The notes beneath the pieces are model-generated. The model was not told the origin of the DNA, searched no databases, and saw only the letters and a program-made list of their open reading frames with translations. A program made the translations under genes and the position numbers. A stretch of 62,123 nucleotides of DNA. Origin: Escherichia coli (GTDB lineage: Bacteria > Pseudomonadota > Gammaproteobacteria > Enterobacterales > Enterobacteriaceae). This document shows positions 59,676 to 62,123 of this stretch, in pieces (positions within the stretch are counted from its first letter, which is position 1; each line of letters opens with the position of its first letter). The stretch lies in the NCBI RefSeq assembly GCF_003334815.1, contig NZ_QOWO01000026.1, one strand, 5' to 3'.

Positions 59676-59750
59676 AGCGGGCGTAGTTCAATGGTAGAAC
59701 GAGAGCTTCCCAAGCTCTATACGAGGGTTCGATTCCCTTCGCCCGCTCCA
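59676..59750 (+). tRNA. glyU: tRNA-Gly (anticodon CCC)
   Basis: GCGGGCG acceptor stem, cuUCCCAag anticodon loop, GGTTCGATTCC T-arm, CGCCCGC-T-CCA 3' end. Confidence 0.92.
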
Positions 59751-59864: not shown

Positions 59865-61511
59865 ATGATTCAGCTATCCAGCAGTCACAAACTTCCAGCC
59901 GTCTCCTATCTCTACCAGCGTAACGGCGTCTACTACTTCCGTCTTCGGGTCAGACAATCAAACAATGATAGAATGACCTCAATATCATTACGGACCAAGG
60001 ATAGACGCACCGCTATGGCTCACTCAAGGCACATCAAGGCAGCACTCAAGGCAATACACGCAGACAGACCCAACGCTACCTATGAGGAAATGAGGGAGCA
60101 CCTTAAGGACATCGCTGAGTGTGAACTGTCTATGGGCCGTTCAGATCTCTTTGAGCCTGACATGAGGGATATCTACCGGGACCAATACGGAGAACTTGGT
60201 GAGAGCCTTACCGATGCTCTGGCTAGTGAGCCGCTAAGTATTGACCAGCATCGTTACATCAATGAGGCCCTGAAGGTGCTAAAAGCCTGCATGAGGCGTA
60301 TCGAAGCGGGAGACAGTCAGCCTCTGATAGATTACGTCGATCATTTTAATGATATTGATAGGCAAGATAGCCAAGTAGCCTCTGTGTCCCTATCTGTTAA
60401 TGCTCCAGAAGTAAAACCAGAAGTAAAACCAGAAGTAAAACTAGAAGTAAAACCAGAAGTTACGCCTAGCATTACCATAGCGAGCCTCTTTGAGCAATAC
60501 GAAGCGGAGAATTATCAGAACTGGAAGCCTGCAACCTTAAGGGAAAACAAGGCGTCACACGCTGCGTTAATCGAAATATTCGACCATCTGGGTCTCAATG
60601 CAGACGCTAACAGGGCTGACATGCTTAAGGTCCGTGATGTGCTCCAGCAGTTACCTAGGAACCGTAAGCAGCGCTTCAAGGATGCCCCACTTGCTGACCT
60701 GTTGAGCCGTGAAGATAAGACAGATTGTCTGGATGTCGTTACCATCAACAACAAGTATCTTATTAAGATGGCTGCTGTCTTTAGGTGGGCTGTGCGCAAT
60801 GACTTGATTAAAAAGAACATGACTGAGGGTCTGGAGCTTAAAGTCCCTCAGCGTAAAGCCTCAGGGGCCCGTAACGCCTTCTCTACGGAGCAGGTGGGGC
60901 AACTACTGGTCGCAGCTAAGGCATACTCTCAGAAGACCTCTGGTAAGCCCTACCACTATTACGTTACGGCTTTGGCTGCTATCACTGGGGCGAGACTCAA
61001 TGAAATAGCCCAACTACAGGTCAAAGACGTCAGGACCACTGAGGCGGGAACCGTTTATATTCATATCAATGAAGACGATAGTAGTCTACCCGGTAAGAGC
61101 ATCAAGAACGCTCATAGTGACCGCTGTGTGCCTCTGGTCGATGGGGCCTATGGTTTTATATTGGCTGACTTTATGAGGTTGGTTGAGACCCGTAGAGGCG
61201 CTGATGGTGATGACGCTATGGTGTTCGATGGTCTTCGCCTCATGAAGAACGGTTACGGTGAGCAGGTGAGTAAATGGTTTAATCGGACGTTGTTGCCTAA
61301 AGTCCTCGCAGATCGTAGCGGCTTAGCGTTTCACTCGTTTAGACATACAGTTGCGACCCAGTTAAAACAACATGGGGTCGAGTTGGCGTATGCACAGGCG
61401 ATCATGGGGCATAGTTCAGGGTCTATTACTTACGACCGTTATGCTAAAGAGGTTGAGGTTGATAGGCTGGTCAATGTGATGGCTGATGTTTATAAGGAGA
61501 TTGTGGGGTAA
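59865..61511 (+). CDS. Tyrosine-type integrase of a genomic island inserted next to tRNA-Gly (N-terminal arm-type domain, PEVK-repeat linker, C-terminal catalytic domain)
   Basis: 548 aa. The N-terminus (SYLYQRNGVYYFRLRV) is typical of island/phage integrase arm-binding domains. The C-terminus has R (TGARLNE), HSFRHT and Y (ITYDRYAK) catalytic motifs. It starts 115 nt after the tRNA 3' end. Confidence 0.85.
   Translation: MIQLSSSHKLPAVSYLYQRNGVYYFRLRVRQSNNDRMTSISLRTKDRRTAMAHSRHIKAALKAIHADRPNATYEEMREHLKDIAECELSMGRSDLFEPDMRDIYRDQYGELGESLTDALASEPLSIDQHRYINEALKVLKACMRRIEAGDSQPLIDYVDHFNDIDRQDSQVASVSLSVNAPEVKPEVKPEVKLEVKPEVTPSITIASLFEQYEAENYQNWKPATLRENKASHAALIEIFDHLGLNADANRADMLKVRDVLQQLPRNRKQRFKDAPLADLLSREDKTDCLDVVTINNKYLIKMAAVFRWAVRNDLIKKNMTEGLELKVPQRKASGARNAFSTEQVGQLLVAAKAYSQKTSGKPYHYYVTALAAITGARLNEIAQLQVKDVRTTEAGTVYIHINEDDSSLPGKSIKNAHSDRCVPLVDGAYGFILADFMRLVETRRGADGDDAMVFDGLRLMKNGYGEQVSKWFNRTLLPKVLADRSGLAFHSFRHTVATQLKQHGVELAYAQAIMGHSSGSITYDRYAKEVEVDRLVNVMADVYKEIVG
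60405..60461 (+). repeat. Intragenic 12-bp tandem repeat (ccagaagtaaaa, about 4.75 copies) encoding (PEVK)n in the integrase
   Basis: ccagaagtaaaaccagaagtaaaaccagaagtaaaactagaagtaaaaccagaagtt. Confidence 0.9.
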
Positions 61512-61631
61512 CCAAGCTGTCCACCCCCGGGGAGATTTGCCTTGAGGATGACCATAGTCGATGACCATATTGCTACAGGCCTGTGTGGTCATGTTTTTGA
61601 CTCACGGTTTTCACTACTTGTCAAGGATTTC

Positions 61632-61654
61632 TAATACGACTCACTATAGAGAGA
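61632..61654 (+). promoter_or_regulatory. Near-consensus bacteriophage T7 RNA polymerase promoter (copy 1): TAATACGACTCACTATAG|AGAGA, with predicted +1 G at 61649
   Basis: Positions -17 to +1 match the T7 consensus TAATACGACTCACTATAG at 18 of 18. The +2 to +6 region is AGAGA against consensus GGAGA. The specificity positions -12 to -8 are T7-like (CGACT), not T3-like or SP6-like. Confidence 0.7.
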
Positions 61655-61769
61655 AGGGACACAAAAAGTTTTCTCTCTTTCTCTCTCTTCTAGGACACTT
61701 GCTACTACTACTACAGGCCTGTGTGGTCATGTTTTTGACTCACAGTTTTCACTACTTGTCAAGGATTTC

Positions 61770-61792
61770 TAATGCGACTCACTATAGAGAGA
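61770..61792 (+). promoter_or_regulatory. T7-type promoter (copy 2): TAATGCGACTCACTATAG|AGAGA, with predicted +1 G at 61787
   Basis: This is the second copy of the tandem repeat. It differs from copy 1 by a single mismatch, A to G at -13. Confidence 0.6.
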
Positions 61793-61858
61793 AGGGACAC
61801 AAAAAGTTTTCTCTCTTTCTCTCTCTTCTAGGACACTTGCTACTACTACTACAGGTAG

Positions 61859-61888
61859 CTCTAACTCTAACTCTAACTCTAACTCTAA
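61859..61888 (+). repeat. Hexanucleotide microsatellite (CTCTAA)5, followed by a degenerate ccgtaa unit; (TAC)4 lies just upstream in each 138-bp unit
   Basis: ctctaactctaactctaactctaactctaa. Confidence 0.9.
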
Positions 61889-62046
61889 CCGTAACTTATC
61901 GCATCCTTTCAGGGGCGGGATGACCAATTACAGACACCAAGCGTTCTACTTAAAGTGAATGCTTCCTGTGTGCTCTGGGTCAGTCGATAAGTGAATAGCA
62001 ATAGACATCATATTAAATATGGTCTCTACCCTACAGGGGCTTAACT

Positions 62047-62123
62047 CTGATGAATCCCCTAATGATTTTGGTAAAAATCATTAAGTTAAGGTGGATACAC
62101 ATCTTGTCATATGATCAAATGGT
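62047..62123 (+). mobile_element. Terminal 77 bp of an IS10 end (IS4 family, Tn10-type). The element continues beyond the window.
   Basis: ctgatgaatcccctaatgattttggtaaaaatcattaagttaaggtggatacacatcttgtcatatgatcaaatggt matches, from memory, the IS10 outside-end sequence that precedes the transposase start. The 9 bp immediately before it (ggcttaact) resemble the IS10 target consensus NGCTNAGCN. Confidence 0.7.

What the first reader, a model, noticed from the sequence alone, without database searches (positions are those of the whole stretch)
61695..61894. Microsatellites (TAC)4 and (CTCTAA)5 embedded in or after the T7-promoter repeats
There are three layers of repetition within about 300 bp: the 138-bp tandem duplication, trinucleotide runs and a hexanucleotide run. 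Repetition of this kind is typical of hypervariable or contingency regions and of phage genome ends.

Copy-number change could alter the spacing or phase of whatever lies downstream of the promoters. The hexamer array resembles the short direct-repeat arrays found near T7-group genome termini.
Basis: seen in the sequence. Interest (0 to 1): 0.45.

Follow-up and report, generated by a model that had tools for sequence, protein, structure and literature searches.

The report
Variable repeats behind chromosomal T7 promoters
The short repeats are real and vary between strains, but they are slippage-prone filler in the untranslated leader of a small mobile island next to a tRNA-Gly gene in E. coli, and that island carries near-perfect phage T7 promoters and so looks built to switch on only when a T7-type phage infects the cell.

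Summary
The window holds (TAC)4 twice, (CTCTAA)5 once and a 138-bp x2.1 tandem repeat, and shuffled sequence predicts almost none of these.

The contingency-locus reading is not supported. The repeats lie in a poorly conserved linker of a non-coding leader. The nearest gene in intact relatives is about 740 nt away, and the ORF that spans the repeats is not conserved. Copy number does vary among strains: CTCTAA runs from 1 to 5 copies and the promoter unit from 1 to 3.

The context is the interesting part. The repeats sit in a 4.1-4.5 kb island bounded by a 23-bp repeat of the tRNA-Gly 3' end. The order is integrase, 1-3 T7 promoters (22/23 and 21/23 matches here, 23/23 in relatives), a structured leader, an AT-rich array, a KilA-N-like gene and a small ORF. 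In this window an IS10-like insertion cuts the island at 62048.

Related islands in E. coli, Citrobacter, Pectobacterium, Proteus, Pantoea and Pseudomonas carry different promoters of the T7-group type at the same position. Two of these I matched exactly to sequenced phages (Kayfunavirus, Pectobacterium phage). One island keeps 290 bp that are about 80% identical to a phage phiOR region. Some variants carry the anti-T7 gene RAZR (PD-T7-4).

My best reading is a phage-RNA-polymerase-triggered island, either satellite-like or defensive. I found no publication describing it.

The parts
59677..59750 (+). tRNA-Gly (CCC), glyU. Its last 23 nt (59728-59750, TTCGATTCCCTTCGCCCGCTCCA) form the left attachment repeat of the island.
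   Evidence: ARAGORN. The same 23-mer is repeated perfectly at the right end of intact islands 4.1-4.5 kb away.
59865..61511 (+). Tyrosine integrase of the island, 548 aa.
   Evidence: Pfam Phage_integrase E=2e-18 plus DUF6538; PHROG phrog_1 integrase E=2e-45. Annotated as site-specific integrase in E. coli genomes.
61573..61855 (+). Tandem duplication of a 138-bp promoter unit: copy 1 at 61573-61710, copy 2 at 61711-61848, then 7 nt of a third copy.
   Evidence: Tandem Repeats Finder gives 2.1 copies at 98%. Relatives have 1, 2 or 3 units with periods of 118-121 bp.
61632..61654 (+). T7-type promoter 1, TAATACGACTCACTATAGAGAGA, 22/23 to the T7 class III consensus. The predicted +1 is 61649.
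   Evidence: 0 expected by chance. The same position holds a 23/23 match in relatives.
61770..61792 (+). T7-type promoter 2, TAATGCGACTCACTATAGAGAGA, 21/23. The predicted +1 is 61787.
   Evidence: The same -13 G variant occurs in L005.
61668..61691 (+). Pyrimidine tract TTTTCTCTCTTTCTCTCTCTTCT (copy 2 is at 61806-61829). It is the predicted 3' arm of a hairpin with the purine-rich start of the transcript.
   Evidence: Tandem Repeats Finder reports an 8-nt period. ViennaRNA gives about -11 kcal/mol for a 5'-terminal hairpin, comparable to the T7 phi10 leader at -13.4, and diverged leaders such as L010 keep a hairpin.
61702..61714 (+). (TAC)4 / (CTA)4 microsatellite at the junction between unit 1 and unit 2. 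A second copy lies at 61840-61852 at the end of unit 2.
   Evidence: It is polymorphic, with 4, 3, 2 or 1 copies in relatives.
61859..61888 (+). (CTCTAA)5 microsatellite in the variable linker of the leader.
   Evidence: Relatives have 5, 4, 3, 2 or 1 copies.
61889..62047 (+). Conserved non-coding block of the leader (CCGTAACTTATCGCATCCTTTCAGGGGCGGGATGACC...ACAGGGGCTTAAC). It is kept in every T7-type island variant examined, and by eye a similar stretch is present in the Proteus and Kayfunavirus-type islands.
   Evidence: Leaders read side by side. The cross-genus similarity was judged by eye and was not scored with an alignment.
62048..62123 (+). Left end of an IS10/ISVsa5-like (IS4 family) insertion sequence. 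It interrupts the island just before the AT-rich array and runs off the end of the window.
   Evidence: 100% matches in more than 2,000 plasmids. An ISVsa5-family transposase gene starts 31 nt after the matched stretch in NZ_CP028170. Intact relatives continue with TTAAAGTTAAC... at this point.

Best explanation
The microsatellites are replication-slippage length polymorphisms. They lie in a weakly constrained linker of a non-coding leader that is transcribed from T7-type promoters.

The leader belongs to a 4.1-4.5 kb integrative island at the tRNA-Gly gene glyU. Its order is integrase, an optional defence gene such as RAZR, 1-3 promoters for the phage RNA polymerase, a 5' hairpin, the variable linker, a conserved block, an AT-rich 11-mer array, a distal promoter-like site, a conserved structured 5' UTR, a KilA-N-like gene and a small ORF.

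The TAC run marks the microhomology (TTGCTAC...AGG) at which the promoter unit was duplicated by unequal exchange. The change with a plausible functional effect is therefore the number of promoters, not the repeat phase.

Inferred, not shown: the island is silent until a T7-group phage makes its own RNA polymerase, which then transcribes the leader and the cargo genes. The most likely purpose is a satellite-like or defensive response to that phage. In that reading the module of promoter plus AT-rich array acts as a replication origin that depends on the phage RNA polymerase, like T7 phi1.1A/B, phiOL and phiOR (the role of those T7 origins is from my own knowledge of the T7 literature).

In this window the island is disrupted by an IS10-like element 159 bp after the hexamer array.
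For: Shown directly:
- The repeats exist and exceed chance.
- Copy numbers differ among otherwise nearly identical islands.
- The variable linker lies between conserved blocks.
- The ORF across the repeats is not conserved.
- The island is bounded by a perfect 23-bp repeat of the tRNA 3' end, and it is also found at a second tRNA-Gly gene, which I identified as glyT from memory of its sequence.

Promoters look selected:
- Every one of 12 fetched E. coli loci has at least one 23-mer with 0-1 mismatch to the T7 consensus on the + strand at the same position, and no match with 5 or fewer mismatches elsewhere in the two 40-kb loci or the 62-kb window. This holds even where the flanks share no similarity.
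- Only T7-like phages match the region in the phage collection, and only at the promoter.

Promoter type tracks the local phages:
- Island L020 has ACTAAACTATCACTATAGGGAGA, 23/23 identical to a Kayfunavirus EcoDS1 promoter.
- The Pectobacterium island has a 28/28 match to a DU_PP_II promoter.
- The Proteus, Pantoea, Citrobacter and Pseudomonas islands carry other promoter-like sites of the T7-group type.

Phage-derived module:
- L026 3969-4258 is 79-82% identical (E=1e-64) to the region from the gene 19 end through phiOR of Pectobacterium phages.
- The best T7 match of the E. coli unit is phiOR, 85% over 40 nt.

Other support:
- No excess of sigma-70 promoters ahead of the cargo genes.
- The 5' UTR hairpin before the KilA-N-like gene has 24 pairs, 8 with compensatory changes, across five genera.
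- Variant islands carry RAZR / PD-T7-4 (PADLOC E=2e-100). This is a proven anti-T7 abortive-infection RNase (PMC13017515) that is reported to 'often overlap an integrase gene' (PMC9519451).
Against: - No experiment shows transcription from these promoters, and both copies in this window depart from the consensus (+2 A in both, -13 G in copy 2).
- No excised or concatemeric form was found. The predicted attP junction is absent from the metagenome and viral contig collections, and all metagenome hits are integrated copies.
- Apart from promoters, the E. coli island shows only weak similarity to T7.
- The T7 concatemer-junction pause signal ATCTGTT is absent from all islands examined.
- The cargo proteins have no assignable function. 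The KilA-N match is below the Pfam threshold, the structure model has no PDB match, and the orf157 model is unreliable.
- An effect of repeat length on RNA stability or structure cannot be excluded.
Confidence: 0.7

Rival explanations
1. Contingency locus: changes in the TAC or CTCTAA copy number switch a downstream gene on or off by altering reading frame, RBS spacing or promoter geometry.
For: Copy number does vary among strains. All three repeat periods in this window (3, 6 and 138) are multiples of three, so the 120-aa ORF at 61561-61923 stays open.
Against: That ORF is not conserved. With a 118-bp period in L001 it breaks into 63- and 67-aa ORFs. Most relatives lack the arrays altogether. 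The nearest gene is about 740 nt downstream in intact islands. T7-type promoters are self-contained 23-mers that lie upstream of the repeats.
Confidence: 0.05
2. Pure defence island. The T7-type promoters act only as an infection sensor that drives a toxic or phage-blocking cargo (the KilA-N-like protein and its partner), giving abortive infection, and the island is not replicated or transferred by the phage. On this reading the long leader and its repeats are regulatory RNA or spacer.
For: The proven anti-T7 gene RAZR sits in the same islands (PMC13017515). Other variants carry an HNH or HEPN-like gene at that slot. A Kiwa system lies next to the Pectobacterium island. The KilA-N slot is replaced by a Rha/Ant-type regulator in L012. 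No free form of the island was found.
Against: A sensor would need only the 23-bp promoter directly before the gene. Instead a 0.7-1.5 kb non-coding leader with conserved blocks and AT-rich short-repeat arrays is kept across genera. The Pectobacterium island keeps 290 bp of the phage phiOR region including non-promoter flanks. The integrase and perfect attachment repeats point to an actively mobile element.
Confidence: 0.3
3. Inert relic: a decayed fragment of a T7-like phage genome captured next to an integrase, with repeats and promoters drifting neutrally.
For: There is a phage-derived segment in the Pectobacterium island. Several copies are hit by IS elements, including this window. The promoters in this window carry 1-2 mismatches.
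Against: Exact consensus promoters persist while their flanks diverge beyond alignment. The same architecture recurs in at least six genera with promoters of different T7-group types. The 5' UTR structure shows compensatory changes. No phage structural or replication gene remnants are present.
Confidence: 0.05

Closest known systems
Phage satellites of virulent or temperate helpers (PLE of Vibrio cholerae, the minimalist Vibrio islands PICMI, P4-like elements, PICI)
   Same: Small integrase-bearing islands at fixed chromosomal sites. They stay silent until a specific helper phage infects, are wired to helper factors, and often carry anti-phage cargo next to the integrase (PMC6002521, PMC7145576 and PMC9519451 for context).
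   Different: No replication initiator, primase, capsid-remodelling or packaging gene could be recognised. Activation would come through the helper's own RNA polymerase promoter rather than through a helper protein acting on a satellite regulator. Excision, replication and transfer are all untested here.
T7 replication origins and the right-end region (phi1.1A/phi1.1B primary origin; phiOL and phiOR secondary origins; phiOR lies left of the concatemer junction)
   Same: One to three T7-type promoters followed by an AT-rich segment. The best T7 match of the unit is phiOR. The Pectobacterium island is about 80% identical to a phage phiOR region over 290 bp. The strand-specific C[CT]TA[AT]AG heptamer density equals that of the T7 left end.
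   Different: The AT-rich array lies about 260 nt after the promoter rather than directly after it. No terminal-repeat homologue and no ATCTGTT pause site are present. The origin and packaging roles of these T7 regions are taken from my own knowledge of the classic T7 literature, with partial support in PMC3276506, and were not tested here.
RAZR / PD-T7-4 integrase-associated defence locus
   Same: Variant islands (L006, L010, L011, L020, L044) carry RAZR directly after the same integrase family and before the phage-type promoters.
   Different: The island in this window has no RAZR gene; the integrase stop is followed directly by the promoter units. In term searches of the two RAZR papers, 'T7 promoter' appears only in methods sections (in vitro transcription primers and T7 transcript mapping).
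Bacterial contingency loci (simple-sequence phase variation)
   Same: Perfect short tandem repeats whose copy number differs between strains.
   Different: The repeats are not in a conserved ORF, not between the -35 and -10 elements of a host promoter, and not near an RBS.

Membership tests
T7 class III (Teseptimavirus) promoter | A 23-bp match to TAATACGACTCACTATAGGGAGA (-17 to +6), with the specificity bases at -12 to -8 (CGACT) intact. | tested here: met
   Window copies match 22/23 and 21/23 with CGACT intact. Relatives match 23/23. The +2 A also occurs in T7 phi1.1A.
T7 class III (Teseptimavirus) promoter | Transcription by T7 RNA polymerase that starts at the +1 G. | not testable with these tools
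   Needs in vitro transcription or RNA-seq during infection.
Contingency locus | The repeat tract lies within a conserved coding sequence, or within the promoter or RBS of a gene, so that unit changes alter expression. | tested here: not met
   The ORF at 61561-61923 is not conserved. The nearest gene is about 740 nt away. The repeats lie downstream of the self-contained promoter.
Contingency locus | Repeat number varies among closely related isolates. | tested here: met
   CTCTAA has 1-5 copies and TAC has 1-4 copies.
Integrative mobile island targeting a tRNA gene | A tyrosine integrase next to a tRNA gene, with direct repeats of the tRNA 3' end at both borders. | tested here: met
   The integrase and tRNA-Gly are in the window. 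The perfect 23-bp repeat is seen at both ends in 13 intact relatives. In this window the right end lies beyond the IS and is not visible.
Phage satellite | Helper-dependent excision, replication and packaging into helper particles. | not testable with these tools
   Indirect searches for an excised form were negative. No attP junction was found in the metagenome or viral contig collections. The IMG/VR hits look like provirus predictions from isolate genomes, judging by their contig names.
Phage satellite | Genes or sites that hijack the helper, such as an origin, a pac site or a capsid-remodelling function. | tested here: inconclusive
   Present: helper-type promoters, a phiOR-homologous segment and AT-rich 11-mer arrays. 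Absent: any recognisable hijacking protein and the ATCTGTT signal.
T7-group terminal short-repeat arrays | Dense, strand-specific arrays of CCTAAAG-like heptamers next to the terminal repeat. | tested here: inconclusive
   The CTCTAA array does not match this motif. The downstream array of intact relatives reaches 33 per kb, against 30 per kb in the T7 left end, but I generalised the motif after seeing both sequences, and the array is missing from this window.

The most novel reading that the evidence does not exclude
These glyU/glyT mini-islands, and their relatives in Citrobacter, Pectobacterium, Proteus, Pantoea and Pseudomonas, are a previously undescribed family of satellites of virulent T7-like phages. 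They would sense infection through the phage's own RNA polymerase promoter, be replicated from a phiOR-derived origin made of promoter plus AT-rich array by the phage replisome, and be spread in phage particles, while carrying anti-phage cargo such as RAZR. Tandem duplication and mixing of promoter units would then tune which phage genera trigger them.
Probability: 0.35. Interest if true: 0.9.

Novelty: new variant of a known kind. Interest (0 to 1): 0.6.

Why it matters
T7 expression systems rest on the assumption that E. coli chromosomes carry no T7 promoters. Here natural E. coli strains carry exact consensus T7 promoters in a mobile island. In my megablast survey about 90 of 5,426 complete genomes had a match to the island's non-integrase part at 80% identity or better, and 17 of them covered at least 80% of it.

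Sister islands in other genera carry promoter-like sites of the T7-group type at the same position, two of which match promoters of sequenced local phages exactly. If these promoters work, they are a simple and specific infection sensor, and the islands may be the first satellites or inducible defence islands tied to T7-like virulent phages. That would bear on phage therapy with T7-like phages, on the natural context of RAZR, and on strain choice for T7 expression.

The microsatellites themselves matter only as markers of a fast-evolving linker and of how promoter units duplicate.

Tried and rejected
- **Vector contamination** as the source of the T7 promoter. Rejected: the same sequence sits in the same chromosomal context, with attachment repeats, in many independent complete genomes.
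- **A coding role for the 120-aa ORF across the repeats.** Rejected: it is not conserved.
- **Known RNA families.** Only the tRNA was found at E <= 1.
- **Homology of the E. coli leader to the T7 and EcoDS1 genomes.** Similarity is at promoters only, plus weak local matches to T7 413-495 (z=8.3 against mononucleotide shuffles, which overstate significance in AT-rich sequence) and to 39316-39365.
- **T7 class II pause signal ATCTGTT.** Absent.
- **Excised or attP forms and virome copies.** None found. The IMG/VR hits appear from their contig names to be provirus predictions from isolate genomes, and the short metagenome contigs are integrated fragments.
- **Function of the cargo proteins.** The KilA-N-like model is confident (pLDDT 86.6) but has no significant PDB match. 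The orf157 model is unusable (pLDDT 44). The larger 340-384-aa proteins of other genera have no Pfam or PHROG hit.
- **Literature.** Five searches for T7 satellites, native T7 promoters in islands, or phage-RNA-polymerase-dependent defence found nothing relevant. A sixth search, on ETT2 with glyU and integrase, returned three papers that I did not read. The classic T7 packaging papers are not in the library.

Full report
**1. The observation**

The window region 61573-61855 is a 138-bp unit repeated 2.1 times at 98% identity. It is followed by CTCTAA repeated 5.2 times at 61859-61889.

A census of perfect short repeats finds (CTA/TAC)4 at 61702-61714 and at 61840-61852, and (CTCTAA)5 at 61859-61888. 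The only other run of this kind in 62 kb is one (GAC)4. Shuffled sequence predicts 0.145 trinucleotide runs and 0.000 hexanucleotide runs.

Each 138-bp unit contains a near-perfect T7 class III promoter. The one at 61632-61654 has 1 mismatch and the one at 61770-61792 has 2 mismatches. No match with up to 3 mismatches occurs in 100 shuffles.

**2. Where it sits**

The window is E. coli-type chromosome. The gene order in the annotated relatives is ygfK ... xdhABC, actS, then tRNA-Gly, which lies at 59677-59750 in the window. A 548-aa tyrosine integrase follows at 59865-61511. The promoter units start 62 bp after the integrase stop.

At 62048 the sequence becomes the end of an IS10/ISVsa5-like IS4-family element, and the window ends inside it. 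Intact relatives in complete E. coli genomes show what was interrupted. After the repeats come:
- a conserved non-coding block;
- an AT-rich array of six TTAACTTA[AT]AG 11-mers;
- a third, degenerate T7-like promoter;
- a 187-aa gene that PGAP calls KilA-N domain-containing, with a weak Pfam match (E=0.003, below threshold) and phrog_129 at E=3e-9;
- a 105- or 157-aa ORF;
- a perfect 23-bp copy of the tRNA-Gly 3' end.

The unit is thus a 4.1-4.5 kb integrative island at glyU, lying just before the GH15 gene and the ETT2 type III secretion cluster. In other strains the same island family sits at a second tRNA-Gly gene, which I take to be glyT from memory of its sequence (L021, L023). This argues for real mobility.

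In a megablast survey, about 90 of 5,426 complete E. coli genomes matched the island's non-integrase part at 80% identity or better. Of these, 17 covered at least 80% of it.

**3.

Among islands that are otherwise nearly identical, the counts are as follows.

| Feature | Copies | Where |
|---|---|---|
| CTCTAA | 5 | window, metagenome contig L051 |
| CTCTAA | 4 | L002 |
| CTCTAA | 3 | L001, L013 |
| CTCTAA | 2 | L008, L014, L015, L016 |
| CTCTAA | degenerate pair | L004, L005 |
| CTCTAA | single AACTAACCGTAAC | L003, L007, L010, L011, L012, L019 |
| TAC | 4, 3, 2 or 1 | various relatives |
| Promoter unit | 1 | L002, L013, L014 and others |
| Promoter unit | 2 (118-119 bp period) | L001, L007, L008, L012, L015, L016 |
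| Promoter unit | 2 (138 bp period) | this window only |
| Promoter unit | 3 | L019, L022 |

The variable tract lies between two conserved elements. One is the promoter with its 5' hairpin. The other is the block that begins CCGTAACTTATCGC.

The TAC run lies exactly at the unit junction. TTGCTACAGG precedes unit 1 and TTGCTAC(TAC)3AGG ends each unit. The duplication is therefore best explained by unequal exchange at this microhomology.

The 120-aa ORF that spans the repeats in the window is not conserved. The next gene starts about 740 nt after the hexamer array in intact islands. The region is hypervariable, but it has none of the anatomy of a phase-variation switch.

**4. The promoters look selected**

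All 12 E. coli loci fetched by that point carry at least one 23-mer with 0-1 mismatch to the T7 consensus. It is always on the + strand, just after the integrase or after a gene inserted there. There is no match with 5 or fewer mismatches elsewhere in the two 40-kb loci or in the 62-kb window.

In variants L006, L010 and L011 the flanks cannot be aligned with those of the window, yet the 23-mer is exact. The identity figure in that call is partly circular, because I picked instances with a pattern. The positional argument does not depend on it.

In the phage collection only T7-like phages match the region, and only at the promoter.

Most T7-type leaders can fold their first 30-40 nt into a terminal hairpin using the pyrimidine tract, at -8 to -12 kcal/mol. 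This compares with -13.4 for the T7 phi10 leader. Diverged leaders such as L010 keep a hairpin. This is modest evidence.

No excess of sigma-70 promoters precedes the cargo genes.

**5. The same design with other phage promoters**

A more distant integrase lineage (72-74% identity) carries ACTAAACTATCACTATAGGGAGA. This is 23/23 identical to an annotated promoter of the Kayfunavirus EcoDS1, and it is typical of K1F-like phages at 7-10 sites per genome.

Homologues of the KilA-N-like protein occur across Enterobacterales and in Pseudomonas. Every context I fetched has the same order: an integrase of about 500-540 aa, 0.7-1.5 kb of non-coding DNA, the KilA-N-like gene, then small ORFs. The non-coding part holds promoter-like sites of the T7-group type. 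Only the first two rows below were matched to a sequenced phage; the resemblances in the last column are my own recollection.

| Host | Promoter-like sequence | Compared with |
|---|---|---|
| E. coli lineage L020 | ACTAAACTATCACTATAGGGAGA | 23/23 to an EcoDS1 promoter |
| Pectobacterium | TATTAACGACTCACTACTAGAAGAGACC | 28/28 to a phage DU_PP_II promoter |
| Proteus | AATTAACCCACACTATAGGGAGA, twice | not compared with a phage |
| Pantoea | CATGCGACTCACTAAAGGGAGA | not compared with a phage |
| Pseudomonas | TAAAAACCCTCAC... | resembles the gh-1 type |
| Citrobacter | two tandem pairs of two different types | one type resembles T3, the other K1F |
| L021 | three promoters of two types | two are K1F-type |

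The 5' UTR just before the KilA-N-like gene is conserved across five genera. It folds into a 24-pair structure in which 8 pairs show compensatory changes.

**6. Link to phage ends and origins**

In the Pectobacterium island, 290 bp directly after the integrase are 79-82% identical (E=1e-64) to a region of Pectobacterium T7-like phages. That region runs from the last 38 nt of gene 19 through phiOR to just before gene 19.5.

The best T7 match of the E. coli unit is also phiOR, at 85% over 40 nt, and it extends past the promoter.

The AT-rich array of intact E. coli islands has a + strand density of the heptamer C[CT]TA[AT]AG of 33 per kb. The T7 left end has 30 per kb, the T7 interior 0.34 per kb and the flanking chromosome 0.05 per kb. 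The array also aligns weakly to T7 413-495, just after phiOL. I chose this motif after seeing both sequences, so the result is suggestive only.

From my own knowledge of the T7 literature, T7 origins consist of T7 promoters followed by AT-rich DNA (phi1.1A/B, phiOL, phiOR). Plasmids that carry such origins plus the concatemer junction are replicated and packaged by T7. PMC3276506 summarises two related points: packaging specificity maps to within 5% of the genome ends, and the T7 RNA polymerase-lysozyme complex pauses at the concatemer junction to start packaging.

Against a strict mimic, no island contains the ATCTGTT pause signal, and no homologue of the terminal repeat was detected.

**7. 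Link to defence**

In variants L006, L010, L011, L020 and L044, the slot between the integrase and the promoters holds a DUF4145 gene. The L006 copy matches PADLOC PD-T7-4 at E=2e-100.

PD-T7-4 was selected with T7 and 'often overlaps an integrase gene' (PMC9519451). It has been renamed RAZR and is an abortive-infection HEPN RNase activated by the T3/T7 portal protein (PMC13017515). In term searches of these two papers, 'T7 promoter' appears only in methods sections.

Other variants carry an HNH-domain gene or a weakly HEPN-like gene in that slot. In one island the KilA-N slot is replaced by a Rha/Ant-type regulator.

**8. Interpretation**

Shown:
- The microsatellites are real, polymorphic and non-coding.
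- They lie in the leader downstream of T7-type promoters, inside a small tRNA-Gly island.
- The promoter unit varies from 1 to 3 copies.
- The island family carries promoters of different T7-group types, two of which match sequenced phages exactly.

Inferred:
- The promoters are fired by the RNA polymerase of the infecting phage.
- The island then acts against the phage, or rides on it.

I rate the satellite-like reading (replication from a promoter-plus-AT-rich origin, possibly transfer) at about 0.35-0.45. I rate a non-transferred defence island at about 0.3 and an inert relic at about 0.05. The specific contingency-locus reading of the repeats is about 0.05.

Searches for excised forms were negative, and the cargo proteins remain uncharacterised.

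**9. Novelty**

Five literature searches for T7 satellites, native phage-RNA-polymerase promoters in bacterial islands or related ideas found nothing relevant. A sixth search, on ETT2 with glyU and integrase, returned three papers that I did not read.

Within known kinds, this is a helper-activated integrative island, that is, a satellite or a defence island. It has a distinct trigger, which is the phage's own promoter. I therefore class it as a new variant of a known kind.

The microsatellites on their own are ordinary. The score reflects their context.

Noticed in passing
window 62048-62123: An IS10/ISVsa5-like (IS4 family) element is inserted into the island just before its AT-rich array. 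None of the 5,426 complete E. coli genomes searched covers this junction, so the insertion looks specific to the source strain.
   Followed up: partly
L001 21060-21200 and the equivalent positions in L004, L006, L011, L020, L021, L026, L028, L030: A conserved structured 5' UTR lies directly before the KilA-N-like gene. It has an invariant AAGTC[AT]TTCTG motif followed by a 24-pair hairpin in which 8 pairs change in a compensatory way across five genera. No Rfam family matches. It could be an RNase III site or a translational control element.
   Followed up: partly
L033 (Citrobacter portucalensis) 2917-2970 and 3487-3540; L021 8269-8320: Pairs of promoters of two different specificities, about 27 nt apart, occur in the same island. 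One resembles the T3 or T7 type and the other the K1F type. This suggests sensing of more than one phage genus.
   Followed up: partly
L026 3969-4258 (Pectobacterium carotovorum): This 290-bp stretch is 79-82% identical to the region from the gene 19 3' end through phiOR of Pectobacterium T7-like phages. It shows direct DNA exchange between virulent phages and the island.
   Followed up: yes
L006 2201-2830, L010 2301-2942, L011 2194-2835, L020 about 1602-2260, L044 799-1440: The RAZR (PD-T7-4, DUF4145) anti-T7 gene occupies the slot between the integrase and the phage-type promoters in variant islands. An HNH_3 gene (L047, L048) or a weakly HEPN-like gene (L030) occupies the same slot elsewhere, so this looks like a cargo hotspot.
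   Followed up: partly
L001 20937-20985: AATCAATACG is repeated three times and runs into a degenerate T7 class II-like promoter (CAATACGACTTACTAATAGGAGACACAC). This aligns to T7 phi4.3 with a 1-nt insertion. Whether it is active is unknown.
   Followed up: no
L011 1-420: In E. coli strain 5735 the left attachment repeat of the island abuts another integrase gene on the opposite strand rather than the tRNA body. This suggests tandem islands at the same site.
   Followed up: no
window 60405-60460: A 12-bp unit, CCAGAAGTAAAA, is repeated 4.7 times inside the integrase gene (Tandem Repeats Finder score 105). It is in frame and would encode a short peptide repeat. I did not examine it further.
   Followed up: no
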